Part shown: positions 1,036 to 21,500 of the stretch, piece by piece | Layout: every line of letters starts with the position of its first letter | Position numbering within the stretch: the first letter of the stretch is position 1 | Assembly (NCBI GenBank): GCA_000092065.1 | Contig: CP000584.1 | Source: Ostreococcus lucimarinus | Taxonomy: Eukaryota | DNA length: 64,000 bases | Strand: one strand, 5' to 3' | Notes under the pieces: model-generated | The model's input: the letters and a program-made list of their open reading frames with translations, nothing else | Databases searched by the model: none | Told to the model about the DNA's origin: nothing | Translations under genes and position numbers: made by a program

Positions 1036-1731
1036 CTAGTAAATCCACGCTCCCCCCCCTATCGAGTTCATTGGCAGCGCGTAAGCCGCGCTCGCGAAGT
1101 ACTTTTCGAGCTGCGGAAGTGCCTTAAAGTTGGCGTGGTACCGCTTGAGCTCCGGAAACGTCTCCAACGGCGACTTCATACCGCGCCTGTTCGCGATGAT
1201 TTCGTGTTGATCCAGCATCTCGAACAGGTGAAAGTCGGCGCTCGACGGCGCGTCGCGAATCAAAAATTCCATCCCGCGTTGCTTCAGCAACGTCTCGAAT
1301 TTCGCGTAGAACTTACCCACCGTCGCGTTCATGTGATCATCGCAGTTCTTTTCGAACGCCTCCTTCGTCGTCGTCTTGCCGTTGAACGGATACACCACGC
1401 CCATCAACGCGTTCCGCAAGTCGTAGATTTCCGCCAGCGCCTGCGCGTTCGCCCATCTATGGTCCTCGCTCGCGAACGCGTCCACGCCCGTGACTTGACC
1501 CAAGAACTCGAGCACCACGCTCGAGTGCGTCACGACTTGACCGTCGCACTCGACGTACGGCAGGTTGATCAGCGCGTTCCCGCTCGCGAGCTCCGGTTTC
1601 TTCCCCGCGAACCACGATCCCGCGTCGGCGTAGTTCACGTCGGCGTAATCCGCGCCGGCGTACTCGCAGAGCATGCGCGCGGGCGCGCCGAGGCCGCGAA
1701 TCGGCCAGTATCCGAGCTCAATCTTCGGCAT
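1036..1731 (-). CDS. Glutathione S-transferase (mu/sigma-like)
   Basis: MPKIELGYWPIRGLGAPARMLCEYAG resembles the mu-class GST N-terminus (MP..LGYW.IRGL), followed by a C-terminal helical GST domain. I chose the ATG at 1731. The track extension to 1890 is Arg/Ala-rich and overlaps exon 1 of the divergent neighbour. Confidence 0.8.
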   Translation of the reverse strand: MPKIELGYWPIRGLGAPARMLCEYAGADYADVNYADAGSWFAGKKPELASGNALINLPYVECDGQVVTHSSVVLEFLGQVTGVDAFASEDHRWANAQALAEIYDLRNALMGVVYPFNGKTTTKEAFEKNCDDHMNATVGKFYAKFETLLKQRGMEFLIRDAPSSADFHLFEMLDQHEIIANRRGMKSPLETFPELKRYHANFKALPQLEKYFASAAYALPMNSIGGGAWIY

Positions 1732-1849
1732 CGCGCGCGCGGTGGCGTGCTTCGCGGGCGCGCGCGCGGCGTCGCGTTGTCGCGGTCGAGCGGGCGGCGG
1801 CGGCCTTCGGGACAACGCGACGCGCGACGGCGACGACGGCGCGCGAGAC

Positions 1850-2666
1850 ATGGCGAGCGTCGCGCCGCGCGCGCGATGCGGGACGATCAAGGTGCGCGAG
1901 TTCGCGCCTCGCGAGCTCGGACGGACGCGGCGTGGGCGCGCGCGGCGACGGCGCGCGACGACGTTTTGGATATCGGTTTAGATACGGCGCGAGTTCGAAC
2001 GAAGGATGCGCGCGCGTTTCGCGAACGGACGACTGACGAACGCGCCGAGCGCGCGCACAGACTATCGTGAACGCACCGACGAAGCGAGGCGCGCGAACGA
2101 CGACGCGCGCGAGTGGTAAGGGCGATGGGAAGGATCGGGTGTACATTGGCAAGGGACGTTACGTCGAAGACGACGCCAAGAAGTACGCTGGGCGCGATAA
2201 CTGGTTCACCGGCGGATGGCCGGGCGGAGAGAAGCAACTGAAGGAAGTTTTCATTCAAGAAGAAGCGGCTGCGGCCGCGCAGGCGGCGAAGGAGAGCGCG
2301 AAGAATGAGCTTCCAGAGTACGCCAAGGGCGACGATACTATTTACGTCGGCAAGGGTAAATACGTTAAAGGTGACGCGAAAAAGTTCGCAGGTCGCGATA
2401 ACTTGTTGACGGGCGGGTGGGCCGGTGGTGAGGTCGGACTGAAGGTTGGGGAGAAGCTGAAGATGAAGAAGGGTGATTTAGTCAAGGTGGCGGCGGGCGG
2501 CGGTTTCTTCGGCATGGGCGGTAAGCCCCAGCGCGTCGGCACCGTTCGCAAAGTGAACGTCAAGAAGAACGGCGATTGCACGATTGAAATCGCCGTGTTG
2601 CCGTTCGATCGCGTCGAAACCGTGGACAGTTCTCTGTGCACGCCGACCACACTGGAGGAAATGTAA
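1850..2666 (+). CDS. Conserved hypothetical protein with duplicated YxGKGxYV..DAKKxAGRDN..TGGWxGGE motif and C-terminal SH3/KOW-like segment (2 exons: 1850..1891, 2061..2666)
   Basis: Track ORF 2067..2666 starts at GTG and has no ATG. Exon 1 (ATG 1850, MASVAPRARCGTIK) ends before GTGCGCGAG and joins in phase 0 at CACAG|ACT (2061). The motif occurs twice (YIGKGRYVEDDAKKYAGRDNWFTGGWPGGE and YVGKGKYVKGDAKKFAGRDNLLTGGWAGGE). The N-terminus looks like a transit peptide. Confidence 0.7.
1892..2060 (+). other. Spliceosomal intron (GT-AG, 169 nt, phase 0)
   Basis: Donor is GTGCGCGAG at 1892. Branch-like GACGACTGACGAA lies about 24 nt before the CACAG acceptor ending at 2060. Splicing supplies the ATG that the downstream ORF lacks. 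Confidence 0.7.
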
Positions 2667-2888: not shown

Positions 2889-3266
2889 ATGCCCGCCGCC
2901 GCGCCACCGGCATCCCCTTCGACGCCGTCGGCGACGATATCTACCGCGCCCACGCACCCCGCCAACTGCTTGTGCTGCATCGGCGGCCCCGACCTGTCGT
3001 TCGAGCGCGCCGTCTTTTCCATCCTCGCATTGAAGTTGGGCTTTGAGTACGACACCGCGGCGAAGTTTATTCGTCTCTGCCGCGCCTCGCCTCGAATGGT
3101 GCTGAGTAAAGGCAAGTTTAAGGTCGCATCGAAGGTGCGAGGGAAAGATATCGACGCGCTGAGCGCGGAGGAGGTGCAGAGGGTGCAGGATGCGGTGCTA
3201 GGCGAGTACGCGGGGACGCTGGCGTTGGAAGAGAAGCAAAGAATCGACGCCGGTACGCGACGTTGA
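2889..3266 (+). CDS. Hypothetical 125-aa protein (no family recognised)
   Basis: ATG-initiated ORF. From residue 30 the composition is not Arg/Ala-biased (PDLSFERAVFSILALKLGFEYDTAAKFIRLCRASPRMVLSKGKFKV...LSAEEVQRVQDAVLGEY). The TGA lies 7 nt before the next gene's ATG. Coding status is unproven. Confidence 0.45.
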   Translation: MPAAAPPASPSTPSATISTAPTHPANCLCCIGGPDLSFERAVFSILALKLGFEYDTAAKFIRLCRASPRMVLSKGKFKVASKVRGKDIDALSAEEVQRVQDAVLGEYAGTLALEEKQRIDAGTRR

Positions 3267-3273
3267 CGTCGCG

Positions 3274-5865
3274 ATGGTGAACGCAGATGGACTACACACG
3301 GTGTGTGATTACGCACGATGGAGAGCGTGCGATCCCACGACGCGATTTCGCGAGGCGGTGCGATATTATGAAACGTTGAACGGCGCGCCGACGACGTTGC
3401 GCTTTGGCGAACTTGTCGACGAGGCGACGCGTTTGAGCGATTTTTTCGCGCCGTACGCGAAGTCAGCGGTACGTGACTCTCCGCCTTGTTGCGTGATCAC
3501 GCTTGAAGACGGCGTGGAAGTGTTCACATGCCAGTTGGCGGCGATGTTTGCAGGTATGGCGGTGTCACCGATGAGTACGCGAGATCCTGCAAAACGATTG
3601 GCGAGCGTCTTTGCAGACGCGGATGTCCGCATCGTGATCGTTCGTGATGGGGACGAGGCATTGAAGGTGGGCGAACTCACGAATGCGAAAGTTTTTACCG
3701 TCGAAGCGTTATTCAGGGCCCAACAACGATCAGCCACTGCGACCATCGCAGTAAAAGCCGACGACGCCTCGCACGTGTTTTTCACGAGTGGATCTACGGG
3801 GCGACCGAAGGGCTGCGTGGCTTCACACGCCGCGCTGTTGTCATACTGCGAAGCGAAGAACATTGCACATGAAATTGACGGTACAAGTGTTGTGTACTGT
3901 GCGAGCAGTCACATGTTTGACCCGCACTTTACGGATTTTTGCAGCGCCATCGTCGCCGGCTGTACGTTGACTTCAGCGTCGCGTGAAGTCACGTTCGCGC
4001 GACTCGGTGATGCTTTGCGAGTATCGAGCGCAACGCATTGTTTGACGACGCCTATTTTGCTCAGTTCGGTACGAGAAATTCCGAGTTTGAAATATTTGCG
4101 GCTCGTCGCGCTCGGCGGAGAAACGATGTCTAAATCGCTCGCGCAAGCTTGGCTCGATGCCGGCGTTCGAGTGGCAAACACATACGGCGTCACGGAATGT
4201 GTCGCGTATCAGACGTTCTGTGAGATAAAACAAGCGTCAAACGATGACTTGCGCACGTTGGGGGATCCACTTCCGGGTAATACATTCATATTTGCCGCCG
4301 ATCCCGGCGACGATCCGACGTTGACGGCGAAAGCGGGCGAGCTTGCAGAACTATGGATCGGCGGGCGCCAGGTCGGGAACGGATATTTGAACCGTCCTGA
4401 GCTCACATCGGCGCGTTTTAAAAATAATTTGTACCGAACGGGCGACATAGTTAAAGTTTCCTCCGACGGCCAGCACATTCTCGTCGGACGTCGCGACGAT
4501 CAAGTGAAGATAAGCGGTCAGCGCGTCGAGCTTGGAGAAGTTGAAGACGCGATTCGCCGTACGTGCAGCGCGTTCACACGTGAAGTGAAGTGTGTTCTGG
4601 CAAGTACAACAAAACAGCTCATCGCTTATTGCACTGGATCTTTCACGGACGTTGACACCGTGGTCACGGCGGCCATGCGATATGCCGTCGCCCGAGAGAT
4701 TCCTCAGCACATGGTTCCATCCATGTTTGTGTTTTTGGACGAGTTGCCGATGACGTCGACAGGAAAAGTTTCGCGCGCGGATTTGTCGCGGCGCGAAGTC
4801 GATGTGCGCGAGCAGGGATGCGCAATCAAGTTTGGTGAGTTTGGTGCGGATTTGGCACGAATATGGTCAGATGAGCTTGGTGTCGATGTAACGCACGGTG
4901 ATGCGGATTTCACAGCGAATGGTGGCGACTCGCTACGAGCGCTTAGAGTAGTTCAGCGAGTAAAAGCGCTCATCATAAAAGAAGACGTCGACGCTGGTGG
5001 TGGTACGTTCGGCGAAGCACTCGGGGCGTTTGCGCCCATCGAACTGTTACAGCGCTCACGGCTAAATGACTACGCGCGCTTTATTCGCGGCAGCGTCGAA
5101 GACTGGCCTTCAAGATATGCCACGGATTCAGACGCCGATGAAGCCGAGGCAACGCTCAGTGATATCGATATCGGCTTGCACGTATTGATTCGCGCATCAG
5201 CGGCAGGTCACGTGAGTTTGGTAAAGCTGCTCGTCGATGCAGGCGTTAGCGTCGATCCAAACTCACGCTCAACGCCGCTCCACGTGGCGTGCGCCAATGC
5301 GCGCGTCGAATGCGTGCGAGCGCTCCTTGATTCCGGTGCCTCCGTGAACGCGCTCGGTACTAGCAGAAGAACGCCGTTGATATTTGCCGTTTCTTCGCCG
5401 ATGTGTACATCTGAGCTCGTGAAGATTCTGTTGGGACGTGGCGCCGCGATTGGCGCAGTCGACGAGGACAAGCAAACTGTTTTGCACGCCGCGGCGCGGG
5501 TGGGCGCGGCGTCTTCGGTCATCGGCACCTTACTCGACGCGCAGTCTACTTCATCCGCGAAAGGTAAAGCGTCAAAAAAAGCGTTGATGTTGCACGTCAA
5601 CGCTCTCGATGTCTGGGGACGTACCGCCTTGCACTGGGCCTCGGTAAACGGCCATCGCAACGCGTGCAAATCGCTCCTCGAGCGAGACGTAGACGCATCG
5701 ATCAAAGATGTCAACGGCGAAACCGCGCGCGACATAGCCGAACGCCGCGCGCTGTGTAGCGCCCAGGAGCGCCCCAGAGGCGGTCGGCCGAGCACGTGGG
5801 GCGACATCGCCAACTTACTCGGCGGAAGCGGAGCTACGAAACACCTCAAAGCGTCTCTGGCGTAA
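3274..5865 (+). CDS. NRPS-like adenylation + thiolation (carrier) didomain protein with C-terminal ankyrin repeats
   Basis: AMP-binding core motifs are present: FTSGSTGRPKGC, TYGVTE, YRTGD and GKVSR. A phosphopantetheine-attachment motif (FTANGGDSLRALRV) follows. At least four ankyrin repeats come next (TPLHVACANARVECVRALLDSGASVN, RTPLIFA, QTVLHAAARVG, RTALHWASVNGHRNACKSLLERDVD). I saw no C, TE or R domain. Confidence 0.85.
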   Translation: MVNADGLHTVCDYARWRACDPTTRFREAVRYYETLNGAPTTLRFGELVDEATRLSDFFAPYAKSAVRDSPPCCVITLEDGVEVFTCQLAAMFAGMAVSPMSTRDPAKRLASVFADADVRIVIVRDGDEALKVGELTNAKVFTVEALFRAQQRSATATIAVKADDASHVFFTSGSTGRPKGCVASHAALLSYCEAKNIAHEIDGTSVVYCASSHMFDPHFTDFCSAIVAGCTLTSASREVTFARLGDALRVSSATHCLTTPILLSSVREIPSLKYLRLVALGGETMSKSLAQAWLDAGVRVANTYGVTECVAYQTFCEIKQASNDDLRTLGDPLPGNTFIFAADPGDDPTLTAKAGELAELWIGGRQVGNGYLNRPELTSARFKNNLYRTGDIVKVSSDGQHILVGRRDDQVKISGQRVELGEVEDAIRRTCSAFTREVKCVLASTTKQLIAYCTGSFTDVDTVVTAAMRYAVAREIPQHMVPSMFVFLDELPMTSTGKVSRADLSRREVDVREQGCAIKFGEFGADLARIWSDELGVDVTHGDADFTANGGDSLRALRVVQRVKALIIKEDVDAGGGTFGEALGAFAPIELLQRSRLNDYARFIRGSVEDWPSRYATDSDADEAEATLSDIDIGLHVLIRASAAGHVSLVKLLVDAGVSVDPNSRSTPLHVACANARVECVRALLDSGASVNALGTSRRTPLIFAVSSPMCTSELVKILLGRGAAIGAVDEDKQTVLHAAARVGAASSVIGTLLDAQSTSSAKGKASKKALMLHVNALDVWGRTALHWASVNGHRNACKSLLERDVDASIKDVNGETARDIAERRALCSAQERPRGGRPSTWGDIANLLGGSGATKHLKASLA

Positions 5866-5924: not shown

Positions 5925-6383
5925 CTACCATAACATATCATCATCCGCATCGTCTTCACCGTCCTCGATCCCCTCGCTCGTCGTCATCGCTCCGATCGCC
6001 CTCGCCGCGTGTTCCGCCGTCTCCGCGTCCGCCCCGCTCGTCGCCGCGAAGTACGCCGCGTTCCTCTTCTTCACCTCCCGCTTCGCCGCCTCCCCCAGCG
6101 CCTCTCGCGGGGCGTCGTCACCACTTCGACGCATCGCTCGCTGTCTCGCGCGCACCGCCTGCTTGTTCATCCGCTTCACGTCCAGCGCGTGTTTATTATT
6201 CGTGCGCTTTTTCGCCTTTTTCGCACCCGCGCCGCCGCCGCCGCCGCCGTCGCCGCCGCCGCCGCGCCGCGCCGTCGCCGTTCCCGCCGCGCCGCTCCCG
6301 AGCGACTCCAACGCGCGCGCGAGTTGATCCTTGAGCAATCGCCGCGACATGTCGTCCCGCGTCGCGTCGCGATGTCGCGCCAT
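5925..6383 (-). CDS. Small basic protein with Gly-rich tract, Lys/Arg-rich centre and acidic C-terminus (hypothetical)
   Basis: ATG at 6383, with an alternative ATG at 6350 (MSRRLLKDQ). The sequence reads KKAKKRTNNKHALDVKRMNKQAVRARQRAMRR...EDGEDDADDDMLW. Composition looks nuclear or nucleolar. No family was assigned by eye. Confidence 0.5.
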   Translation of the reverse strand: MARHRDATRDDMSRRLLKDQLARALESLGSGAAGTATARRGGGGDGGGGGGAGAKKAKKRTNNKHALDVKRMNKQAVRARQRAMRRSGDDAPREALGEAAKREVKKRNAAYFAATSGADAETAEHAARAIGAMTTSEGIEDGEDDADDDMLW

Positions 6384-7221: not shown

Positions 7222-8922
7222 TCACAAGAAGAATCCTTTGCGAATGGGCGCGTTGGGAGGCTTGGCCTCGACGACGTTTGCGCCGAGCGCGTGCTTGCAA
7301 ATTTTGCCTTTCGCGTCGCCACTGTACAGCGCCTTACCATCGGTTGTTACCACAATGGCGTTCACGTCAGCGTCGTGAATAGTCGTTTTGAACATGAGTT
7401 CGCCATCCGTGACGCGCCAAACGCTTAATTCGCCGTCGCCGCGAATGATCGAATACGGTTTCGGCGCTTGCGCCGCTTTGGAACTTCCGATGACGATGAA
7501 AGGATCGTTCTTAATCGTACATAATGAGTTGACATATCCTTCCTGACCACCAACTGATCGCACCCATTGTAACGATAATTTGCCGCTCTTTCCTCGCACG
7601 TCGTGGATGCGCACGCTGCCATCCGCACCGGCGCAATAGAGCGTTCGACCGTCTTTCGCGATCGTCATCTCTCGCACCGCGGAAGTCATCTTCGTGGTCG
7701 AGTGAGGCTGCATCGGTGTGACTTTCGACTTCAAGTCCCATATCGCGATGTATGCATCGAGCGAACCACTCACGATGGCGCTGTTAACTCTCACCAACGA
7801 CGTGACGCAGTCGCTGTGAAATTCCAAATGTTTCACTGTTCCAATTTCTCTCTCACCCGCAGCAGCGCTCTCGAAACATCGATCATACGCATCAACGTCA
7901 TCGATGTCGTCGAGTTTGCTCGTATGCTTGAACGTGAGGTCCTCGCCACTGCTTCTTTCTTCGTTTGTAGGCGAAGACGTTAAATCCCACACATAAACTC
8001 TTCCATCTCGCAACAAGGGCGACGCCAGATAAATGATCGACAAGTCGTCGTTCGCCGCCATCGAACGACACTGTGGCGCGGTGTTTGTGTATTTGGACAG
8101 CTTTTTTACGTTGACGTATTTAAAAACATCGGCGAAATCGCTGTGCGGCGCGCTCCACGTCGTCGTCTCTCCGTTGTCCAGCGACACCTTACTCCATCCA
8201 CCATTTTCGTACCCGACGAGCGCTTCGCCGCTGGCTTTCGATATTTGCAACATCCGCACGGGTGTGTTTGCGTTGTTAAACTCGTCTCCGGTGGCGTTCA
8301 CCGGCGTTGGATAAAAGCTCCGCATCGCGCCAGCGCCAACGTCGCCGCTTGCTCGAATCTGCTTCACCACGCCGTTCGTCATCCCGACGTACACGCTCGC
8401 CCCATCCGGCGCGATCGTCATCACGCGCACACCCTCGCGCACGAACTCCCCCTCGCCTTCGCGCGAAACTGCCTCTGGAACGACGACGCGCTCGAACGCC
8501 GCGCGCGTCGTCTTCATCTTTTCCGCCCGCGCCGGCGCCGACGTCGCGGTCCCGCCCAAACTCAAAGTCGTCGTCGAAGACGACGACGACGACGCTCCAT
8601 CGACCGCGACCGCGTCGAGATCCACCATTTGCGGCGGTGTCTCCCGCGTCCGCGGTCGGCGATGCTTCGCGTACCGCCCCGCGACTTTCCTCGCCCTTCG
8701 CTCGCGATCGCCCTCCCCATCGAGCGTTTCTTCATCGACCACCTCCACTTCGCGTATCCGCACCATCGCCCGCGCCGCCCCGCCCCGCCTCGCCTTCGCC
8801 GCGCCGCGACGTCTCGTCGACCTTCCTCGTCGCGCCTCGCGCTCGCGCGCGCGCGCGTCGATCTCGCGCGCGTCCGACTGGTCAGAGACGCGTCGCCCTC
8901 CCGAGCGTTTTTTTTTAATCAT
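7222..8922 (-). CDS. WD40 / beta-propeller repeat protein
   Basis: WD-like blades are present (HSDCVTSLVRVNSAIVSGSLDAYIAIWDL, DGRTLYCAGADGSVRIHDV, GDGELSVWRV, GKALYSGDAKGKICKH). The first ATG in frame is 8922 (MIKKKRSGG). The track extension to 9279 is an Arg-rich shadow overlapping the divergent gene. Confidence 0.7.
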   Translation of the reverse strand: MIKKKRSGGRRVSDQSDAREIDARAREREARRGRSTRRRGAAKARRGGAARAMVRIREVEVVDEETLDGEGDRERRARKVAGRYAKHRRPRTRETPPQMVDLDAVAVDGASSSSSSTTTLSLGGTATSAPARAEKMKTTRAAFERVVVPEAVSREGEGEFVREGVRVMTIAPDGASVYVGMTNGVVKQIRASGDVGAGAMRSFYPTPVNATGDEFNNANTPVRMLQISKASGEALVGYENGGWSKVSLDNGETTTWSAPHSDFADVFKYVNVKKLSKYTNTAPQCRSMAANDDLSIIYLASPLLRDGRVYVWDLTSSPTNEERSSGEDLTFKHTSKLDDIDDVDAYDRCFESAAAGEREIGTVKHLEFHSDCVTSLVRVNSAIVSGSLDAYIAIWDLKSKVTPMQPHSTTKMTSAVREMTIAKDGRTLYCAGADGSVRIHDVRGKSGKLSLQWVRSVGGQEGYVNSLCTIKNDPFIVIGSSKAAQAPKPYSIIRGDGELSVWRVTDGELMFKTTIHDADVNAIVVTTDGKALYSGDAKGKICKHALGANVVEAKPPNAPIRKGFFL

Positions 8923-9081
8923 TCGACGACCGTTTGGCCGCGGGACGCGACGTCGCCGCCCGCGCGAGCCGCACGCGTCGACGCGCGCGTCGCGCACGCC
9001 GCGCGCGCGAACGCACGCGAAACGCGGACGCGCGCGCGATCGACGCGCTCGGACGCCCGTTCGGTGCGGCGCGCGCGCGCG

Positions 9082-12000
9082 ATGCGGCGCCGTTTCGACG
9101 ACGAAGCCGCGGGGTGCGCGCGAAGATGCGAACGCGCGCGCGGGCGAACGCGCGGCGCGCGGTGGTCGCGCGGCGCCGCGGTGGCGATGCTCGTCGTCGT
9201 CGCGCGCGTCGTCGTCGCGCAGCGCGTTGAACCGATGAAGGCGCCGACGGTGACGTGGTTGGAACCGCCCAAGGGGCACGTCGCGGGCGGGACGACGCTC
9301 GCGGTGTACGGCGGCGGTTTCCTAAACTCGGCGCGGTTGAAGGTGAGGTTCGCGAGGGGCGAGGAGACGACGGAAGCGTACGCGACGTATCACTCGTCGA
9401 CGATGATCACGGTTGTGACGCCCGCGCGCGTCGGCGCGGGATGGACGCAAGTCACGGTGGCGAACGACGGGGAGACGTGGAGCGGGACGCCGAACGTGTA
9501 CACAAAGGGATCTGGGACGTTTTTGGCGTACGTCTACGACGATTCGTTGGCTGGATTTTACGATGGCGTGCGACAAGGGGAGAATACGAACGCGTATCAC
9601 GAGTTGTGGAGCGCGAGTAACACGACGGGGCCGTACATCGGCGGTACCATCGTGCGCGTCTACGCGCGCAACTTGGATTTGGGCTCGAATACGTTGTCGT
9701 CAAGCGCTACGTACGTAGGCCCGACAGACGGCGCGGGGTCGCCGAATCCGAACTTTCCAGACCCTAATGCGGTGATGAATAGTCCGCCGGTGCATGGGAC
9801 GTTCTATCCGGGCTCGAAGTTGACGTGCAGGATGACGTGCAACATCGATGTAAATCAAGACTCCAGCATCGCTAGCGACGGGTCGGAAACCTTTGTCACG
9901 GCGCAACCAGCAATTTGGCATAGCTACACGTCGGTTGAGTGCGAAACACCACCGATGCCGGTGCCAGTGGGCGATCCGATTCCGTCGACGGCGTGCCACA
10001 TGCACATCTCCAACGATGGGATCAACTACGATTACGCCAACGTTACATTTACGTACGCGGATCCGTTGCCGACAGTGACTAGCATTAGCACGGCGCAGTC
10101 TTCGGTTTGGGGCGCTCGAGGCCCTTTTGATGGAAACACCGAAGTCATCGTCAAGGGAACGAACTTCCTTCCTAGCAAGTATCTCAAATGCAAATTTGGG
10201 GGTATACCGGAGAGCGGTAAAAATTTATGGGAAAGCGACGACGTGTCGCACGTCGTCGGCACGCCCGGCGGACGTGTTCGGTGGGTTTCGAGCACGGAAA
10301 TTCGTTGTATAACCCCGGAGTTCGGTCCTGCGTCACAACAACGTCAATATCCAGCTGGTTCGACGTTAGCGGCCTCCATCGGGTGTTGCGCCGTGCTAGA
10401 TGTCACCTTTGATGCCAACAACGGCATTTCGTCCACCGTCACCATAGTCGACGGCGGGCGAGGCTACGCCACCGCGCCGGTGCTGACAATAATCGGTGGT
10501 GGAGGAGGGGGTGCGACGGCGACAGCGACCATAGACTCGAGCGGAGTCGTCAACGCGGTGACGATCACGAACGCGGGGCACTCTTATAATCAGGGCTCTG
10601 GCGCCACCGCCACGGCGACGCTCGACGCCTCTGGTGGAACGTTGAGCGCGCTTACGCTCACGGCTGCGGGAAGCGGTTACACCGTGCCGCCTGACGTGAC
10701 GTTTTCGTGTAGCGGCGGGGGTGACTCGTGTCTGGGTACGCATATGCAGCACGCTCGTGCTGTGGCAACTCTAGGTCCCGCCGCCAATTGTTTCCCCGAG
10801 TATGGATGCTACGACAAAGTTGTCGTATCGCTGCGACTGACGTTCGTCGGTAATACGTACACTTCCGCGCCTGTGGTTACGATATCACCTCAAAAGCCGT
10901 ACGTCTTGGTGCAGGCGAATGAACTTTTCACATCGGCGAATGATCCCCCGTCGATTGGGGCGTACACCATGCAAGGGAAAGGGGAAACCGAGCTCGATCC
11001 GCAGCTCTCGCACGGCTCGTGGGTGGACGACGGAAGCGGAGGGCGAATTTACAACGTCACCGACGCGCCTTACGACGTTGTCGCGGTCTCGGGTGTACCA
11101 GGAGCGAATCCTGGGCGACGTCTGTACGCGGTCAATCAATATAGTCAGAATAGCCCGGAAGATCGCGGTGATCTTCTCGCACCGCTGGGCCAAGCGGGAA
11201 GCGATGGGTCGATTAAACCGGCGCACCAGGATCTCGTACAAGTGAGCAACAATTACAACAAGTTCGGCGTTCCTGTGATCGGTAACGCGGCTGCAACGCC
11301 CACGCACGTTGGATATCGCGACAACACCGCAGCGGTAAAGGGATATTGGATGTGGAGTCGCAGTACGGGCTCAGCGAGCGATTGCCAAGTTTCCAACAAT
11401 CCGCCGTTGAACTTTTATGATGGCACAACGCTTATGGGACATAACCTCGATAAAGGCACGGGGTGGGTCGTCGCTGGCTCCTCAAACGAGTACTTGGGCA
11501 TTCCTGGAAACTCCGACTTGGGTCATCCGTCGAAATCGTGCTTGTACTTTTTGTACGGCGACATTTACGTATCGCCGTCGGGGAGCGACGCAACCGGACA
11601 AGGCACCGCGGCAAGACCGTACGCCACGATTCAAAAGTGCATCGATTCGGCGTTGACAGACGTGCGTGATTATCACGTGAACGCCGTCGGTGAGTCAAAC
11701 CCGAGCGTGCCCGCGAGGATATCGACGCAAATCACTAAATTCAACGCTGGGCGCTCGCAAAAGCGCGATGGAGGCGGCGGCTACGCGTACACTGTGAATC
11801 GCGATCGTTGCATCCTGAAAGACGGCACGTACTTCGGCCCGGGCAATCGACAACTTCGTGCCAACGGTCGCGTCATCCAGCTATGGGCAGAAAACGAGGA
11901 GCGAGCCGTCATCGACTGCGAAGGCTTCCCCGTGGGCAAGCAAGTCTACGCCAAGCGCGAGCCGACGCGCGTGAGCGCGCCGGGTTCGATCGCCACCCAG

Positions 12001-15587: not shown

Positions 15588-18500
15588 ATGAACTTTATTC
15601 GCCGTTTCGCCAACTCGAGTAATCCGACGCTCGACGCGCGCGACGCGACGCCACCATCGACGTCCGCGCCCGATGCGGCGGGCGCCCGCGTCGAGCTTCG
15701 ATCCGCCGAGACGATCGACGTCCCGCGCGTGATGAATTCGATGTTTGACGAGGGCAGGGACGGGGATTTGGTGTTTTCGTGGCAGTTGATGTCGGGCACC
15801 GCGAATGCGGGCGAAAGCAGCAGACGCGAAGCGACGAACGCGTTCTTCGACGCGTTTTCGGAGACGTACGCGCGGTGGGAACCGGCAAGGGCTAGGGGTG
15901 CAGATGAAGGGGACGATTCAGACGTCGGGTGCGCGGTCGCGCATCCTCGCGCGGTGACGCTCGCGGCGGTGGAGGACGCCGCGGGTCTGGGGGAACGGTT
16001 GGAGCGTGCGCTCACGGGCACTGTCGACGTCGGTGGAATCGAGCAGAGGATGGCGAGCATTGGTGTAGAAACCTTTCGAGCTCTGGAGATTATGTCGAGG
16101 TCGGCGCACAACAGAGTGTTCATGGAGCAGTGCGGGGCGAGTCGCGCGTTGGCAAACGCGTGCAAAACGTGCGCGCAGCGAATGTTGACGTTCAGCGCGG
16201 GGGCGGCGTCGGCTTCAAAAGAAAATTCAATCGAGGCTGGAGCGCTGTTGGAAGCGTTGCAGCACGTCGTGGAGCACGCGGTGAATGTGATTGATTCTTT
16301 CTTGGGCGACGCTTGGGCACTTCGTTCGTTCAACGAAAACGGCGCTTTGTTGGCTTTAATTGAAGTATTACGTGCGGAAAAAGTGGTCGTTGGTCGTGTC
16401 CACGGTGACGTCCGTAAGATGGCAATTTCAATAGAGCGAATGGCCATGCGCGCGATCGGGCGCGTCATGCACGGCGATGCCGCCGTACAAAAGAGCATAG
16501 CAGGAGCAGGAGGCTTGGATATTTTTTTTGAAGGCGTGTACCCAATCGAGGCTGACGTCAGCGTCGATATCGCGGGGTTCGAGACGTCGCTCATGAATCT
16601 CGAAATATCGCACACGCTACTTGCTGGTAATAAGTCCAACGTTGAGCGCGCTCAAGGCATTGGTTTGTTTACGCGAGTGGCCCGTCTGATGCGCGCGGCG
16701 AATGATTTGAGCGAAACACTCGTCTCAGATGAGGCGAGCACGTCAACGACGGAAGGCGAAGTCGCTGGTGTTCCATGGAGCGCGCAGCTCTTAGACGACT
16801 CCCTACGTTGTCATGAAGTCATCATCACGGACGGATATCCTAGTGAGGTGATTAAGAGACTGTTGAAATTCGTCCATCAAGACACCAGCGCCGCTGGCGG
16901 TTGGGCAAGTAAAGGAGCGAGGGAAATGATCTTAAAATGTCTCTTCGATTCGATTATTGAAGCGTGCTCGAGTTCAAAAGAGTCATTCAAGAGCGATTCA
17001 GAGTGTGTGAGATTTAGAGCACACGTGTTACGCTTTTTTAGTGACGCCATCGATATAGATCCCGCGGTCTTGCGCGTGATGCGTCAAGCACGCGCGTGGG
17101 ACATGTTGTTAGACGCCGATACGTACGGCGCAATTCCTTCAGTGGATCACAAAAATGAATATGAATCGGTGTCAGAGAGCACGACGTCGATCTTACGGCG
17201 TCGTGTACAAATTCAAACCGCGGCGTTACTTCTCAAAGCTTGTCAAATTGCCGCCGAATTGTCTGATTGTGTGGACGAATGCAACGTTCTGATCGGCACC
17301 ATCACGACGAGAGCAATACAGCCGTCGGTTGCGATTCGGCTTTGTCGCGTTCTAGAGCTTCTGCTAATCGATTCGTCGCACAGTGTGTGTAAAGCGTTAT
17401 CCGAGGTGGAAGCTCCAGGTCGACTTGCGGGGGCGTTGAACGCGCAATTGAAATGCTGGGGGTGTGACCAGGTAGCGTTCATCGGTGAAGTAGGAGCGAC
17501 AGCGAACTCCGCTGCTTTTGGTTCTACACTAAGCGCACTGAGGGCGTGTCTGAATGGTCCGGACGTGCTCGCGGCGTCGGCACTCAACAACGATGGTGTT
17601 TCTGACTTGATTTTCAACGAGCTTTTGTGGACAAACACGACTCGCGATTTAGCCATATCGGCCGTCGTATCTTTGGTGGGGTTGCGTCTGCACGCTCCAT
17701 CACCTCACGCCAGCGGCGCGCATCGTGAAGCATGGTCAAGCGTGGCGCGCCGATTCATCCAGGCCCTTCCCCGTGCACGAGGTACCGATATCACGTTGTT
17801 ATCGGCGATGCTTTCTGGGTTGCGTCAAATGTTGAACAATCCAAACGGCTCCGGAGACAGTCTGCGAGAATGGATATCGTCTGAAGACGGCGCAGAGTTT
17901 GTACAAATCGTTGCGCTTTGCGATGGTGACGCTGGTGAAGAGGTTGGGTTGGATGTCATAGCGACGTTACAGGCAGTGATCTCTAACTCGCATTCGTCAG
18001 CCTCAACGTTTGAGCGCTCAGTTGGATACGACACATTGATTGACGCCATACAGTGCGCTCGCGGCGCGGGTCCAGTATCCAAACCTCTGTTCGACGCCCT
18101 CATGAGCTTTGTTATTGATGACGACTATGGCACAGGGGGCGAGTCCAGCGGCATCGCTTTGCGGAACGCTAAGGCGCTACAAATGCTGCTCACTCTGATA
18201 GGAAACCTCGGCGCGTCTGACGAGTTAAAGGATGAGCTTCTCAAGGCTTTTAAGCAGATGTTGTCAGCGTCTGTGACGTCAAAAGCCACCGCAGATGCGG
18301 CTGGTGTTTTAGACTTCTGTCTTCAATGGTACGTGGATGCGAATCGCCGGCAAGCAGTACTCGAAGTCATCGCGCTTTGCAGCTCGTTTTCAATGTCCAC
18401 CAAGCACGTGCGTCAAATATTCCGTCTGTTGCAGGGCGACTCCATTTCAGCGGACGATCAATTGCAGCTGCTCCGGGTCCTACAGCACTCCGCAAAGCGA

Positions 18501-21500
18501 GTTGGTCCTTCTACATTTTTCGATTTCACTGGACCTGGTTGCGGGATTCACGTTAATAAACAACTAACTCTTCCAGTACGAAACGGCTACACCGTCTCGA
18601 TGTGGTTCCGCATCGAGCGGTTTCCGGAGTACGGCGGTCCAGTGCCGCTGTTTTCTTTACTATCGGGCGCTGGTAACGGCATTTTAGGAGAGTTACATGC
18701 GAACAAGCTCACGCTTGGCATTCGAGGATCCACGGGCACAGTTGATACCGCGTCGATCGACATCACAGTACGAGAGAACGAGTGGACTTTCTTAACGATT
18801 GTGCACCTTCCGGTGCGAATGTCGCAACCCCTGGTTCGTGTCTTCCTCGATGCTGGCATGGTTGGTCAGGCGAAGTTGCGTTACCCGATCAAGTCCACGG
18901 AAGCGATATCGTATTGTCGCATTGCTTCCGTGACGTTCGACGTTAGCCTAGAGAACGCGCACGTCAAGGTGTCACCGTTTTTCGGCCAACTGGGTTCGAC
19001 GCATATATTCGATGATGCCCTTTCGCAACCGGCGATTGCGATGATTCATGCACTCGGTGCAGATTATGTCGGACGTTTTAAGTCAACAGAATCGCAAACG
19101 GAAAGAATCCTTCAGGCAATCAGCGTGAACGCTGTCGAGGCTCGCGATACTCGCGAGTATCTCGCCGATCATCGACTGATTAGTATAAGCGCAGTCACCG
19201 TCGCCGGTCGAAGCGCTCAGTCGGAGGTGTACGACGTGAACGAATATGATTTGATCGGAGGGGCGAAAGTTTGCGTCACAAACTCAGTCAAAGACGTCGT
19301 GCACTGCCTCGGTGGTGTTCAAGTCGTTCTTCCAATCTTTTCTGACATCCTGCACGCCGCCGAGACGTCGAAACGGCGACAAATTGTTTGCGAAGGGGTT
19401 CATCTGCTCGTTGCTTTACTCGATGGAAGCAGACTCAATCAAGTTACGTTAACGTTGTGTGATGGGTACGCCTTGATTGCAAATCTTCTGCGAGAGAATG
19501 CAACGACTTTACTCTGTCCAGATTTACTCCCAGCACTCGACAGGCTTCGTCGTGCGGGCGGGATCGAGCACGAATCGGCATCGGCACGCATCGTCGTTGA
19601 TTTGCATCTTTGGTCCCTCGCCGATGACGCCACTCAAAAAGCGCATGGCGAGTACTTGTTGAGTTTGGCGACCAAACACTCGGATGGATTACGATTTCAT
19701 TTGCCAACAAGTGATCTCATCGATGCCCTCGATTTCACTCCAGGTGCGAGTGGAACGTCTCGTCGTCGAGTTTTGTTGGACGTGTTGAAGCAGCTTGTTA
19801 TCGACGCCCCGAATCAGATGATTGAGGAAACTGCGGAAACTATCGTTCACGTCATCGAAGAATGTGCCGACGAAGACACCGTTGGTGATGTTCTGCGCTG
19901 GCTAGTTAACTGCATGCAACCGGGTGAGGAAGTTCAGCCCACGCTCTACCAGGCTTTCACCAAGCTCGGCGGACCACTGCTGGCGCTATCGCCTTTGAGC
20001 AGGAGCTCCAGGCGAGTCCGCTCTTTCGCTCTTCTGTGGCTTGCAAACTTGATGCCTCCGCTCGAGGCTTCGAGCAAGAGTTCTGGGGGTGCCTCTCATA
20101 TATCTGCTGCTTTCGGCGCGGCCGCTGGTGCGCTGACTGCCACTCTCGGCGGCAAGTTCACGGCGACAGCGAGTCAGGATTTTGAAGTCGGCTTTTTCAC
20201 TGCAGTCGCGAACGCCCTCGAAAAATTCCCCCTCGATATCGCTGAATCCCGCTCGGCGCTCTTTGAGCTTTTACTTGGTGGCCAGGCGCTACCAGCGGAA
20301 AAAGTAGCCGAAAGGTTGAACAGGGAAAAGAATTCATCCGTGCGAGCTGCGGCTGGCAGGCTCTTTGCCAAAGTCACAGGCCACGGAAACGACGCGCAAA
20401 CCAAAGATAAGGAGTGTATTAGCGTTGGTGTACCCGGTATAGTCAATGCAGGCGCCGCTGGGGTGTTGCTTCGACTGATGAATTCAAGCGATAATGCGGA
20501 AATGCGTTTAAGCGTGCTCGAGCTGCTTCTCCAACTCGTGGAAGGTGCAAGCGTGAACGCACAGGCTGTGCTGGAGCAGCGAGGCTGGCAGACTTGGATC
20601 CTCCCCATCCTCAAAGACCACAGTGACGAAACGCAAAACGACGAGAAATCGATGGCTCGACGATTAATAACGGCACTTCTCTCGCACGCGGTGCTCAAGA
20701 CTGACGAAGGTCACCAGCACGTGTCGAACATGCTTGGCGTCATCGACATTCTCATCAAACGCGGCGTCTTAGCCGATGAGTCAGACTTAGCGCAGGAACT
20801 CCTTTCGGATTTGCTTGAGTGCATTCTCCCGACGCGAGCGTCTTCGTCCGAGCAAGACGAGTGGTCTGAAGTGCAAAATGTTGAGTCACCGATATGTCGT
20901 CGCAACCTTTCGAGACTTTTGCACATATTCGACTCAATCATTTCCGACACGTCCGCGACAGCGGCCGCGCTTGGAGTACCGAGTGCCTCCGATGCAAAGT
21001 CCAGCGTTAAGAAGATCTCTTGGAGATTTTACGACAACTTATGGAACCTATTAGATGCGATCTCTCCTCCTGGTCATCCCGTGGACGCGCCCGAAGAGAC
21101 GGCGGATGCCGTAAAATCCACAAACATGGCTCAAAAGCTGCACAGGCGAGCGAAGAGTATGATTCGTGATTTACCATTTTCGAGCAATAGCGAGAGCGAG
21201 TTTGATAGCGTCGAAGCCGTTGAGGCTCTGCGCAAGACTTGTCAGCGAATGGGATTCAGGTTGACCTTACTTTACGTGCGAGCGAGCGCGCTCGAAGAGT
21301 TGCAGACAGCACTGAATACGTGCATTGGACTTCTACCATCATTTTTGGCCCCAGTCTTGGTCGACAAGGATGGAAAAGCGATGGATACCGCGCCGCTAGG
21401 GAACAGAGCGCACTTGTTTATCGCGGATTTGATGCGTTACGTCGAGTTTGCTAAAAAGAGTGAAGATCCTGATGCGTCAACACGGTCGCAGCTCGTCGTA

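What the first reader, a model, noticed from the sequence alone, without database searches (positions are those of the whole stretch)
3274..5865. Stand-alone NRPS-like A-T module fused to ankyrin repeats, with no condensation, reductase or thioesterase domain
The adenylation core motifs and the GGDSL carrier-protein serine motif are clear. Immediately after the carrier domain, the protein continues into at least four ankyrin repeats and ends. There is no visible release or condensation domain. The activated acyl or aminoacyl thioester must therefore be handed to a partner, perhaps one recruited by the ankyrin platform. The architecture is reminiscent of orphan A-T proteins (AASDH/Ebony type), with a protein-interaction domain substituted at the C-terminus. 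Substrate and function cannot be read from the sequence.
Basis: partly seen in the sequence, partly recalled or inferred. Interest (0 to 1): 0.6.

Follow-up and report, generated by a model that had tools for sequence, protein, structure and literature searches.

The report
Orphan amino-acid-loading enzyme with ankyrin tail
A small marine green alga encodes a complete amino-acid-activating and carrier enzyme that ends in ankyrin repeats and a strongly conserved tail instead of any product-releasing domain; the same uncharacterised protein occurs in several distant eukaryote groups, and in green picoalgae it always sits just after a small unknown gene.

Summary
Window 3274-5865 (+) is one intact 863-aa ORF. 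It has an NRPS-type adenylation domain with all core motifs, a carrier domain (GGDS553L), a flexible acidic linker, six ankyrin-like repeats and a roughly 40-aa C-terminal tail. There is no C, E, R or TE domain and no room for one. No downstream exon can add one, because the next gene is antisense.

The window is nuclear DNA of an Ostreococcus-like alga. The same architecture occurs in Ostreococcus, Micromonas ("ligase/ankyrin repeat fused protein"), chytrid fungi and Balamuthia. Tail-bearing fragments occur in a cryptophyte, Prasinococcus and Amoebophrya. The specificity code is nearly fixed family-wide (DPTLAGTAYK / DPGLAGTVYK) and matches no code I know. The last ankyrin repeats plus tail are the most conserved part, more so than the catalytic core.

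New here: a conserved small ORF (2889-3266) ends 7 nt before the start codon. In 48 of 48 informative metagenomic loci its homologue directly precedes an A-T(-ANK) homologue, so a dicistronic unit is likely.

I found no functional study. The best reading is a stand-alone loading module whose thioester is used in trans by a partner docked on the ankyrin/tail module. Rating: a new variant of a known kind, moderate interest.

The parts
3274..5865 (+). Complete A-T-ANK gene: 863 codons plus stop, no intron
   Evidence: ORF list and translation. Homologues of 847-874 aa in other Ostreococcus clades align end to end. The O. mediterraneus transcript ORF is 'complete' at 860 aa. dN/dS is 0.19 against a 93%-identical relative.
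3364..4803 (+). Adenylation domain (residues ~31-510: large N-terminal part plus small C-terminal subdomain). Asp216 is the PheA Asp235 equivalent and Lys498 the Lys517 equivalent. Specificity code DPTLAGTAYK
   Evidence: Pfam AMP-binding 3e-41. TIGR01733 scores 250.8 bits. LgrA, EntF and GrsA match in PDB. The code was extracted against a verified 1AMU sequence. The method was validated on bacterial hits. Foldseek's best matches are thiolation-state A-T structures.
4831..5094 (+). Carrier (thiolation/PCP) domain, residues ~520-607. The phosphopantetheine-attachment Ser553 is at nt 4930-4932 in GGDSL
   Evidence: Pfam PP-binding scores 19.9 bits here and 26 bits in homologues. G550, G551 and S553 are invariant in 35 family members. 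The model shows a four-helix pattern with Ser553 at the start of helix 2.
5095..5160 (+). Acidic, variable, low-confidence linker (residues ~608-629)
   Evidence: pLDDT is below 50 at residues 620-630. This is the lowest-conservation stretch of the protein, 0.28.
5161..5763 (+). Six ankyrin-like repeats (residues ~630-830), with a variable insert at 760-777 between repeats 4 and 5
   Evidence: Pfam Ank families. Ankyrin-1 and DARPin matches in PDB. Helix-pair pattern in the model. Invariant residues are Q734, R742, W781, R783, W788, E816, R824, R825 and C828.
5764..5862 (+). Family-specific C-terminal tail (residues 831-863). With the last repeat it forms the motif GET..D[IA]AERRA[LR]C[SG]A.ERP.G.R.S.[WF]GDIA.LLGGSG.TK
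   Evidence: This is the most conserved region of the protein: mean frequency of the commonest residue is 0.75, against 0.55 for the A core. It always sits at the extreme C-terminus. It has no Pfam or PDB relative. The pattern was not found in bacterial/archaeal or viral collections.
2889..3266 (+). Conserved small ORF1 (125 aa; core H..NCLCCIGGPD..FER...F.RLC...LSKGK.K), probable upstream cistron or partner
   Evidence: Homologues occur in other Ostreococcus clades and in Micromonas. dN/dS is 0.10. In 48 of 48 informative metagenomic loci it directly precedes an A-T(-ANK) homologue on the same strand. It is on the same assembled transcripts in O. mediterraneus, unspliced. No Pfam family matches it.
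3267..3273 (+). 7-nt inter-ORF spacer (CGTCGCG) between the ORF1 stop and the A-T-ANK ATG
   Evidence: Sequence. Junction survey.

Best explanation
The gene encodes an active, stand-alone NRPS-like loading module.

**Proposed steps.**
1. The adenylation domain uses ATP to activate one specific substrate. This is most likely an uncharged alpha-amino acid.
2. The substrate is transferred to the phosphopantetheine arm on Ser553 of the adjacent carrier domain, forming a thioester.
3. A flexible linker tethers the carrier to a six-repeat ankyrin domain with an invariant C-terminal tail. This module has no catalytic fold.
4. The ankyrin/tail module acts as the docking and specificity element. It brings a trans-acting partner within reach of the loaded carrier. 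The partner is either an enzyme that modifies or removes the aminoacyl group, or an acceptor.
5. The partner, not this protein, performs the release step.

In Mamiellophyceae-type green picoalgae the protein is co-encoded with a small Cys-rich protein (ORF1), probably on one dicistronic mRNA. ORF1 is the prime candidate for a partner or accessory subunit.

**Shown:** the domain anatomy, intact catalytic motifs, the conserved code, purifying selection, absence of release domains, family-wide conservation, and the ORF1 linkage.

**Inferred:** the substrate class, phosphopantetheinylation by a PPTase encoded elsewhere, docking of a partner, transfer in trans, and dicistronic expression.
For: - **Catalytic competence.** All A-domain core motifs and the carrier serine are intact and invariant across 35 family members. 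The Asp235 and Lys517 equivalents are invariant.
- **Specificity pocket.** The 10-residue code is nearly fixed: DPTLAGTAYK in Ostreococcus and DPGLAGTVYK elsewhere. It contains no charged pocket residue. The same extraction recovers textbook Gly, Val, Thr, Ser and Ala codes from bacterial hits.
- **Fold.** The model adopts an A-T thiolation-state arrangement most like holo-EntF and LgrA.
- **No release domain.** None is present and there is no space for one.
- **Flexible linker.** It is the least conserved stretch and has low confidence in the model.
- **Conserved C-terminus.** ANK5 (0.66) and ANK6+tail (0.75) are more conserved than the A core (0.55). Invariant residues sit at positions that form the target-binding face in ankyrin repeats. 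These are repeat positions 3, 5, 13 and 14: Q734, R742, W781, R783, E816, R824, R825. The position-to-surface mapping comes from my knowledge of DARPin design.
- **No gene cluster.** No biosynthetic cluster surrounds the gene in the alga or in chytrids.
- **No canonical acceptor module.** Ostreococcus and Micromonas have no C-domain NRPS (PMC4661987 Table 1).
- **ORF1 linkage.** It holds in 48 of 48 informative loci. Gaps range from -17 to +91 nt, with one outlier of 598 nt, and all three relative frames occur. ORF1 has a weak Kozak context, and ORF1 dN/dS is 0.10.
- **Precedent.** Dicistronic nuclear genes are established in green algae (PMC7896298 and PMC11291117).
Against: - No partner has been identified, and no experiment exists for any family member.
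- The substrate cannot be named, because the code matches no characterised code I know.
- No PPTase was found among the window ORFs I scanned. This is uninformative for a eukaryotic genome.
- ORF1 is absent next to the chytrid and two other family members examined. It therefore cannot be the universal partner.
- The transcript evidence for a dicistron comes from short-read assemblies. Those contigs also merged the antisense downstream gene, so overlapping separate transcripts are not excluded.
- Several of the invariant ankyrin residues coincide with the general ankyrin consensus (R at positions 5 and 13). They may be structural rather than ligand-binding.
- I could not inspect inter-domain contacts in the model.
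Confidence: 0.55

Rival explanations
1. Protein-directed aminoacyl or acyl transfer. The ankyrin/tail module binds a conserved cellular protein rather than an enzyme. The carrier-bound thioester is passed directly to a side chain of that protein, possibly via the invariant Cys828 in an E1/E2-like relay. On this reading the family is a post-translational modification writer.
For: - The binding module is more conserved than the catalytic core across eukaryotic supergroups. That fits a highly conserved protein target.
- It is a single gene kept in streamlined genomes, without any biosynthetic cluster.
- Cys828 is invariant in the 32 tail-bearing members scored (three outliers excluded).
- ORF1 carries an invariant Cys cluster (H..NCLCC...C) that could accept a thioester.
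- AASDH/ACSF4-U26 has the analogous A-T-plus-interaction-domain layout. It has been suggested to act in post-translational modification (PMC10531068).
- From my own knowledge, zDHHC17 uses ankyrin repeats to recruit substrates for thioester-based S-acylation.
Against: - There is no precedent for an NRPS-type carrier directly modifying a protein.
- Cys828 lies in the helix of the last repeat in the model and may be buried and structural.
- No target is known.
Confidence: 0.2
2. Metabolite sensor or scaffold. Adenylation and self-loading act as a ligand-dependent conformational switch that controls what the ankyrin/tail module binds. No product leaves the enzyme.
For: - No release domain is present, and no canonical downstream enzyme is encoded in these genomes.
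- The interaction module is strongly conserved.
- A-T didomains undergo large domain rotations, and the model sits in the thiolation state.
Against: - Every catalytic motif, the specificity pocket and the carrier serine are fully conserved over very long evolutionary distances. That is more than ligand binding alone would require.
- No precedent is known to me.
Confidence: 0.1
3. An ordinary acyl-CoA or fatty-acid ligase, as the automatic JGI name suggests. On this reading the carrier-like segment is vestigial and the ankyrin repeats serve only for localisation.
For: - The JGI automatic names are 'acyl-coenzyme A synthetase/AMP-(fatty) acid ligase'.
- There are weaker NCBIfam hits to acyl-CoA ligases.
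Against: - The best matches by far are NRPS amino-acid adenylation domains: TIGR01733 at 250.8 bits, and LgrA at 9e-89.
- The Asp235 equivalent, which binds the alpha-amino group, is invariant.
- GGDS with Ser553 is invariant, and the carrier fold is predicted.
Confidence: 0.05
4. Gene-model artefact. The real protein would be longer: ORF1 spliced on as an N-terminal exon, as in the Micromonas RefSeq model XP_002505199.1, or a hidden exon supplying a catalytic domain.
For: - The Micromonas commoda model fuses the ORF1 homologue to the A domain.
- A 34-nt GT..AG stretch (3253-3286) would join the two ORFs in frame in this window.
Against: - O. mediterraneus transcript contigs are colinear with the genome across the junction and keep the stop codon.
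- The candidate GT donor is not conserved in a 93%-identical relative.
- The relative frames of ORF1 and ORF2 vary (0, 1, 2), and the ORFs overlap in some lineages.
- The Micromonas intron would delete the conserved N-terminus of the A domain.
- The downstream neighbour is antisense.
Confidence: 0.03

Closest known systems
AASDH / ACSF4-U26 (vertebrate beta-alanine-activating A-T protein)
   Same: It is a single NRPS-type A-T module with no condensation, reductase or thioesterase domain, followed by a non-catalytic repeat domain that presumably mediates interactions. Its physiological acceptor is unknown, and a role in protein modification has been suggested (PMC10531068).
   Different: The AASDH C-terminus is a PQQ-type beta-propeller (my knowledge), not ankyrin repeats plus the conserved tail. 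Its substrate is beta-alanine. I expect a beta-alanine pocket not to keep Asp at the 235 position, whereas here Asp235 is invariant. Sequence relatedness to AASDH could not be tested with the tools. AASDH was not among the 120 best homologues.
Ebony (insect beta-alanyl-amine synthase)
   Same: It is a eukaryotic stand-alone A-T module without a C domain. The loaded thioester is resolved by something other than a classical NRPS domain (PMC10531068).
   Different: Ebony carries its own catalytic C-terminal amine-selecting domain, which performs the condensation in cis (my knowledge). Here the C-terminus is an ankyrin solenoid with no catalytic fold.
Bacterial stand-alone A-T didomains and type II NRPS loading pairs (PA1221, PltF/PigG, DltA/DltC, SyrB1/CmaA type)
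   Same: The logic is the same: load an amino acid on a carrier, then present it to trans-acting tailoring or transfer enzymes. These are the closest sequence and fold relatives. The best non-family homologues are bacterial NRPS modules at about 30% identity, and the model superposes on PA1221, PltF and DltA structures.
   Different: The bacterial systems sit in gene clusters that name their partners, and they lack a fused protein-interaction domain. This gene is eukaryotic and not clustered, apart from ORF1 in green picoalgae. It has the ankyrin/tail module.
ACBD6 / plant ACBP2-type proteins and zDHHC13/17 (ankyrin repeats fused to a thioester-handling module)
   Same: Ankyrin repeats are fused to a module that holds an activated acyl thioester, and they serve to recruit the protein that receives or uses it. 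This comparison rests on my own knowledge and was not tested here.
   Different: These are unrelated folds (acyl-CoA-binding domain, DHHC membrane enzyme). They use CoA or enzyme-cysteine thioesters rather than a phosphopantetheinyl carrier loaded by its own adenylation domain.
Green-algal dicistronic nuclear loci (Gallaher et al. 2021, PMC7896298; leaky-scanning model, PMC11291117)
   Same: A small upstream ORF and a larger downstream ORF lie on one strand, separated by a few to tens of nucleotides. ORF1 has a weak Kozak context and few internal ATGs, and the pairing is conserved between species.
   Different: This pair has not been reported in the text of those papers that I searched. Their supplementary locus tables were not opened. 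Direct long-read or proteomic proof is lacking. ORF1 here (about 120-140 aa) contains 1-3 internal ATGs.

Membership tests
NRPS amino-acid adenylation domain (ANL superfamily) | Core motifs A1-A10, including the TSGSTGxPKG P-loop (A3), YGxTE (A5), Y(R/K)TGD (A7), GRxDxQVKIxGxRIELGEIE (A8) and the catalytic Lys in A10 | tested here: met
   The motifs were read in the translation. They are invariant in the 35-member alignment. They align to LgrA and GrsA.
NRPS amino-acid adenylation domain (ANL superfamily) | Asp235 and Lys517 (PheA numbering), which bind the alpha-amino and carboxylate groups of an amino-acid substrate | tested here: met
   D216 and K498 align to D235 and K517 in all 35 members.
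NRPS amino-acid adenylation domain (ANL superfamily) | Score above the curated cutoff of TIGR01733 (AA-adenyl-dom) | tested here: not met
   The score is 250.8 bits against a cutoff of 317.4. It is the best NCBIfam hit but falls below the trusted cutoff. This is a divergent eukaryotic branch.
Peptidyl carrier (thiolation) domain | GGxS motif with the serine at the start of helix 2 of a four-helix bundle, and a Pfam PP-binding match | tested here: met
   GGDS553L is invariant. The helix pattern in the model fits. PP-binding scores 19.9 bits, under the 20.8 cutoff, in this protein, but 26 bits in homologues P0051 and P0062.
Peptidyl carrier (thiolation) domain | Post-translational phosphopantetheinylation by a PPTase | not testable with these tools
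   No PPTase was found among the window ORFs I scanned. The rest of the genome is not available.
Canonical NRPS elongation or termination module | A condensation (PF00668), thioesterase (PF00975) or reductase domain in cis | tested here: not met
   No such hit was found at E<=0.01. The C-terminal 255 aa are all ankyrin-type helix pairs plus the tail.
AASDH/ACSF4-U26 | A-T followed by PQQ-like beta-propeller repeats; beta-alanine specificity | tested here: not met
   The C-terminus is ankyrin, not a propeller. Asp235 is retained, which I expect to be unlike a beta-alanine pocket. Orthology by tree was not tested because no AASDH sequence was available.
Ebony | A-T followed by a catalytic amine-selecting C-terminal domain | tested here: not met
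   There is no non-ankyrin fold after the carrier domain.
Lys2 / CAR / ATRR-type A-T-R enzymes | Terminal NAD(P)H-dependent reductase domain | tested here: not met
   No NAD-binding or reductase hit was found.
Ankyrin-repeat proteins | Tandem 33-residue helix-loop-helix repeats with the TPLH / GH signature | tested here: met
   Pfam Ank_2 at 3.3e-36 and related families. Ankyrin-1 and DARPin matches. Six helix pairs in the model.
Green-algal dicistronic loci | Both ORFs carried on one mature mRNA | tested here: inconclusive
   Two O. mediterraneus transcriptome contigs carry both ORFs unspliced and start 2-8 nt before the ORF1 ATG. The same contigs also include the antisense downstream gene, so merging of overlapping transcripts is possible.
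Green-algal dicistronic loci | Short inter-ORF distance, weak ORF1 start context, and conserved colinearity across species | tested here: met
   Gaps range from -17 to +91 nt in 47 of 48 loci. ORF1 has T or C at -3 and C or T at +4. Colinearity holds across 48 of 48 loci from at least 15 lineages.
MbtH-like proteins (as an identity for ORF1) | Pfam MbtH match with the conserved Trp signature | tested here: not met
   No Pfam family matches ORF1. There is no Trp in the conserved core.

The most novel reading that the evidence does not exclude
The A-T-ANK proteins are an ancient, eukaryote-specific thiotemplate system that modifies a conserved cellular protein or other macromolecule rather than making a small-molecule natural product. 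On this reading the ankyrin/tail module selects the target, and the carrier-bound aminoacyl thioester is transferred to it, possibly through the invariant Cys828. In green picoalgae the small Cys-cluster protein translated from the same dicistronic mRNA would be the acceptor or an obligatory co-factor.
Probability: 0.18. Interest if true: 0.8.

Novelty: new variant of a known kind. Interest (0 to 1): 0.5.

Why it matters
Single-module NRPS-like enzymes of eukaryotic primary metabolism are few, and each one solved revealed unexpected chemistry. Examples are Lys2, Ebony, the glycine-betaine reductase ATRR and the diatom tryptophanol enzyme. AASDH is still unexplained.

This family is retained in some of the smallest free-living eukaryotic genomes and in chytrids and amoebae. 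It also appears in alveolates and a cryptophyte, so far only as partial A-T proteins or tail-bearing fragments. It has a fixed substrate pocket and a binding module that is even more conserved than the pocket. That points to one conserved, unknown reaction in cells that lack any classical NRPS machinery.

It is also experimentally tractable. To my knowledge, Ostreococcus tauri and Spizellomyces punctatus can both be transformed. The tightly linked small ORF gives a concrete first candidate partner. It would also be a clean test case for dicistronic expression in Mamiellophyceae.

Tried and rejected
1. **Exhaustive search with the ankyrin+tail region.** The phmmer search with residues 636-863 was swamped by giant ankyrin-repeat proteins (210,971 hits). 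It gave no information on other architectures. The query was badly chosen.
2. **Tail-only profile searches.** The search of the large protein collection returned only short fragments, probably terminal exons. The searches of PDB, bacterial/archaeal genomes and viral contigs found nothing. No alternative architecture or prokaryotic or viral origin was seen.
3. **AF2 model of ORF1.** Confidence was too low (pLDDT 56.5) to justify a fold search.
4. **AlphaFold-database fold search.** It was unavailable.
5. **The 34-nt GT..AG 'intron' (3253-3286).** It would fuse ORF1 and the A-T-ANK ORF in frame. I rejected it because the donor is not conserved, transcripts are unspliced, and relative frames vary.
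6. **Stop-codon read-through.** It is possible in frame-0 lineages (O. mediterraneus, M. commoda). I rejected it as a general mechanism because this window and many loci are out of frame or overlapping.
7. **PPTase or biosynthetic neighbours.** None was found in the window or in the chytrid loci.
8. **Literature.** Five full-text searches found no functional study of an A-T-ankyrin protein. One paper notes generally that mono-functional PKS or NRPS domains in Symbiodiniaceae are fused to HEAT, ankyrin or PPR repeats (PMC6361889).
9. **Substrate assignment.** The code DPTLAGTAYK / DPGLAGTVYK matches no code I can recall, and none among the 55 bacterial modules examined.
10. **Rfam.** No RNA family was found in the window.


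Full report
**What is in the sequence**

Window 3274-5865 (+) is a single uninterrupted ORF of 863 codons starting with ATG. Pfam places an AMP-binding domain at residues 31-372 (E 3e-41) and a weak AMP-binding_C. It places a PP-binding match at 526-563 (19.9 bits, cutoff 20.8). Several ankyrin families match from residue 638 (E down to 3e-36).

The translation shows all adenylation core motifs: FFTSGSTGRPKG, FDPHF, NTYGVTE, YRTGD, GRRDDQVKISGQRVELGEVE and TSTGKVSR. It also shows GGDSL at 550-554. Against solved structures, residues ~40-567 match NRPS A-T modules. LgrA scores 9e-89, and EntF, SrfA-C and GrsA also match. Residues ~630-820 match ankyrin-1 and DARPins. NCBIfam's best hit is the amino-acid adenylation model TIGR01733, at 250.8 bits against a trusted cutoff of 317.4.

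An AlphaFold2 model built on a 35-sequence family alignment has pLDDT 83.3 and pTM 0.74.
- Ser553 sits at the start of carrier helix 2.
- Residues 608-629 are a low-confidence acidic linker.
- Residues 630-862 contain only helix pairs. These form six ankyrin-like repeats, with a disordered insert at 760-777, followed by two short tail helices.

Foldseek against the PDB ranks thiolation-state A-T structures first: holo-EntF 5t3d and LgrA 5es8. No condensation, epimerisation, reductase or thioesterase domain is detected, and no unassigned stretch is long enough to hold one. The next gene downstream lies on the opposite strand and is followed by DnaJC9. The only correction is that there are six repeats rather than 'at least four'.

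**Where the window comes from**

The surrounding ORFs are ordinary nuclear genes of a plastid-bearing eukaryote with a compact, intron-poor genome. They include:
- DnaJC9, a WD40 protein, TIG and EF-hand proteins, and a 2974-aa ORF (15588-24512) whose O. mediterraneus-like counterpart carries BEACH domains;
- a CBP/p300-type acetyltransferase, TERT and a gamma-tubulin complex protein;
- a cytochrome-b5 front-end desaturase, malic enzyme and a plastid-type sigma factor.

The exact protein sequence is on record only in metagenome-type assemblies, in a 190-member cluster at 90% identity or more. The 59%-identical relative is Ostreococcus mediterraneus. The 37-38% relative is Micromonas commoda XP_002505199.1, named 'ligase/ankyrin repeat fused protein'. 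Gene order (A-T-ANK, antisense gene, DnaJC9, WD40) is shared with Micromonas. The window is therefore nuclear DNA of an Ostreococcus species.

**A conserved family, not a one-off fusion**

About sixty 90%-identity clusters among the best homologues have the same AMP-binding plus ankyrin architecture.
- Named full-length members come from Ostreococcus, Micromonas, five chytrid genera (Spizellomyces, Geranomyces, Chytriomyces, a Chytridiales isolate, Siphonaria) and the amoebozoan Balamuthia.
- A partial A-T protein from the dinoflagellate Prorocentrum carries the same specificity code.
- Short fragments with the family-specific tail come from the cryptophyte Baffinella, Prasinococcus and the syndinian Amoebophrya.
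- Pfam scans of chytrid, Balamuthia and Micromonas members give the same architecture and nothing else.
- The nearest relatives outside the family are bacterial C-A-T or A-T-TE modules, at about 30% identity over the A-T part only.

**Specificity pocket**

I verified my recalled GrsA-PheA sequence against PDB 1AMU (100% over residues 183-526). I aligned it with the family and read the ten Stachelhaus positions.
- All eight Ostreococcus-clade sequences give DPTLAGTAYK.
- Nearly all others give DPGLAGTVYK or a one- or two-residue variant.
- The Asp235 and Lys517 equivalents are invariant.

As a control, the same procedure on the bacterial hits returns textbook codes: DILQLGLIWK for Gly, DAFWLGGTFK for Val, DFWNIGMVHK for Thr, DVWHISLIDK for Ser and DLFNNALTYK for Ala. 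The code-to-substrate assignments come from my own knowledge.

The family code matches none of these, and none I know. It has no charged pocket residue and has small residues at positions 239, 299 and 301. From this I infer an uncharged alpha-amino acid, the same one in all lineages. The substrate cannot be named.

**The C-terminal module is the most constrained part**

I measured the mean frequency of the commonest residue for each region.

| Region | Conservation |
|---|---|
| A core | 0.55 |
| Carrier domain | 0.56 |
| Linker | 0.28 |
| Repeats 1-3 | 0.48 |
| Repeat 4 | 0.56 |
| Repeat 5 | 0.66 |
| Repeat 6 plus tail | 0.75 |

The motif GET..D[IA]AERRA[LR]C[SG]A.ERP.G.R.S.[WF]GDIA.LLGGSG.TK lies at the extreme C-terminus in every complete tail-bearing member. 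One divergent member, P0062, has a longer C-terminal extension without the motif.

Invariant or near-invariant residues include Q734, R742, W781, R783, W788, E816, R824, R825, C828, R833 and S840. Several sit at repeat positions 3, 5, 13 and 14. Those positions form the target-binding face in ankyrin repeats, by my knowledge of DARPin design. Arg at positions 5 and 13 is also the general ankyrin consensus, so part of this signal may be structural.

The tail has no Pfam or PDB relative. Its pattern was not found in 185,579 bacterial and archaeal genomes or in the viral contig collection.

**Genomic context and a linked small ORF**

No biosynthetic cluster surrounds the gene in the alga or in two chytrids. 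A published survey of algal genomes lists no C-domain NRPS in Ostreococcus, Micromonas or Bathycoccus. That survey required a C domain, so it would not have counted this gene (PMC4661987). A classical NRPS acceptor module is therefore not available in these organisms.

Immediately upstream lies a 125-codon ORF (2889-3266). Its stop is 7 nt before the A-T-ANK ATG.
- It has no Pfam family but is conserved in other Ostreococcus clades and in Micromonas. The invariant core is H..NCLCCIG.PD..FER...F.RLC...LSK.K.K.
- Outside Ostreococcus there is an additional N-terminal GPFRLP motif.
- dN/dS against a close relative is 0.10, compared with 0.19 for the A-T-ANK ORF.

A metagenome scan with the ORF1 profile gave 53 loci.
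- In all 48 loci with enough downstream sequence, the ORF1 homologue is followed on the same strand by an A-T(-ANK) homologue.
- Gaps range from -17 to +91 nt, with one outlier of 598 nt.
- All three relative reading frames occur, and several loci show stop/start overlaps.
- At least 15 lineages are covered, with A-T-ANK sequences as divergent as 32% identity to Micromonas.

The ORF1 start context is weak (T or C at -3, C or T at +4). Only 1-3 ATG triplets lie between the two start codons, against 4-5 expected from composition.

Two O. mediterraneus transcriptome contigs contain both ORFs. They are colinear with the genome, keep the stop codon, and start 2-8 nt before the ORF1 ATG. These features match the dicistronic nuclear genes and the leaky-scanning model described for green algae (PMC7896298, PMC11291117).

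Two caveats apply. The transcript contigs also include the antisense downstream gene, so merging of overlapping transcripts is possible. I found no long-read or peptide evidence.

The Micromonas RefSeq model joins the ORF1 homologue to the A domain through a predicted intron. That intron would delete the conserved N-terminus of the A domain, so the model is probably wrong.

ORF1 is not detectable next to the chytrid genes or two other members. It is a lineage-specific addition rather than the universal partner.

**How it most likely works**

These points are shown:
- an intact, selected NRPS-type A-T didomain with a fixed pocket and carrier serine;
- a flexible tether;
- a non-catalytic ankyrin/tail module under the strongest constraint;
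- no release domain and no cluster.

The rest is inferred. The enzyme would load one alpha-amino acid as a thioester on its own carrier. The ankyrin/tail module would dock a conserved partner, which takes or transforms the aminoacyl group in trans. This is the logic of bacterial stand-alone A-T loading proteins, with the partner specified by a fused interaction domain instead of by an operon. I give this 0.55.

The main rival (0.2) is that the docked partner is itself the acceptor, which would make this a thiotemplate-based protein modification. It is favoured by the extreme conservation of the binding module, by retention in streamlined genomes, and by the invariant Cys828 and the ORF1 Cys cluster. 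It has no precedent.

The other rivals score lower:
- a sensor or scaffold role (0.1);
- a plain acyl-CoA ligase (0.05);
- a gene-model artefact (0.03).

**Comparison with known systems**

The protein works like AASDH/ACSF4-U26 (A-T plus a repeat domain, acceptor unknown) and like bacterial type II NRPS loading proteins. It is not a member of the AASDH, Ebony or Lys2/CAR/ATRR families, because their defining C-terminal domains are absent. Relatedness of the A domain to AASDH or Ebony could not be tested for lack of their sequences.

The fusion has been named by annotators in Micromonas. Ankyrin fusions to trans-acting PKS or NRPS domains have been remarked on in dinoflagellates (PMC6361889). 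I found no study of function, substrate, tail or ORF1 linkage.

**Verdict**

I rate it a new variant of a known kind, an NRPS-like A-T enzyme with a novel, conserved interaction module. Interest is moderate (0.5). The wide conservation, the invariant tail and the apparent dicistronic partner raise it. The absence of any functional evidence, and the fact that the architecture is already in databases, limit it.

Noticed in passing
window 2889-3273: A conserved 125-aa ORF with an invariant H..NCLCCIG.PD..FER..RLC..LSKGK core ends 7 nt before the A-T-ANK start codon. Its homologue precedes an A-T(-ANK) homologue in 48 of 48 informative metagenomic loci. This is a probable dicistronic unit, and the protein belongs to no known family.
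   Followed up: yes
L007 5554-6001 and protein P0168 (Micromonas commoda XP_002505199.1): The RefSeq model fuses the small upstream ORF to the A domain through a predicted intron. That intron removes about 40 conserved N-terminal residues of the A domain. Unspliced Ostreococcus transcripts and variable frames suggest the model is a mis-fusion of two cistrons.
   Followed up: partly
window ~2762-2804: Three tandem copies of an AT-rich 15-mer (AATATTCAATACTTT; the last copy is truncated) lie in the ~220-nt intergenic region just upstream of the small ORF. This could be a promoter element.
   Followed up: no
window 2067-2666 (+) and 1135-2070 (+): The 199-codon ORF contains two copies of a GKG.Y..DAKK.AGRDN..TGGW.GGE motif and has no in-frame ATG for its first ~130 codons. 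It overlaps the preceding ORF by 4 nt in another frame. The same layout is called in relatives (L003 8541-8819 / 8816-9415). It may be a spliced gene or another closely coupled ORF pair. It has no Pfam family.
   Followed up: no
L004 1409-1437, L007 5979-6001, L029-L031, L041-L044 and L054-L055: In O. mediterraneus, M. commoda and one further lineage (L041-L044) the small ORF and the A-T-ANK ORF are in the same frame. They are separated only by one stop codon and 15-27 nt. In the window's lineage and many others they are out of frame or overlap. Read-through fusion is therefore possible in some lineages only.
   Followed up: partly
window 60001-64000: GC content drops to about 0.51, against 0.58-0.66 elsewhere. 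No complete ORF of 200 aa or more is listed there. This could be an ORF running off the window end, an intron-rich gene or non-coding DNA. There are no Rfam hits.
   Followed up: no
window 5925-6383 (-): A 152-aa antisense ORF lies directly downstream and converges on the A-T-ANK 3' end. Equivalents of 150-188 aa in Ostreococcus relatives and 569-594 aa in Micromonas sit in the same position. It has no Pfam family.
   Followed up: no
protein P0062 (metagenomic, 1126 aa): This is a divergent family member. Its code is DPGTVGTVYK, it lacks the canonical tail motif, and it carries a ~200-aa extra C-terminal extension after the ankyrin repeats. It is a natural variant that could help define what the tail does.
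   Followed up: no
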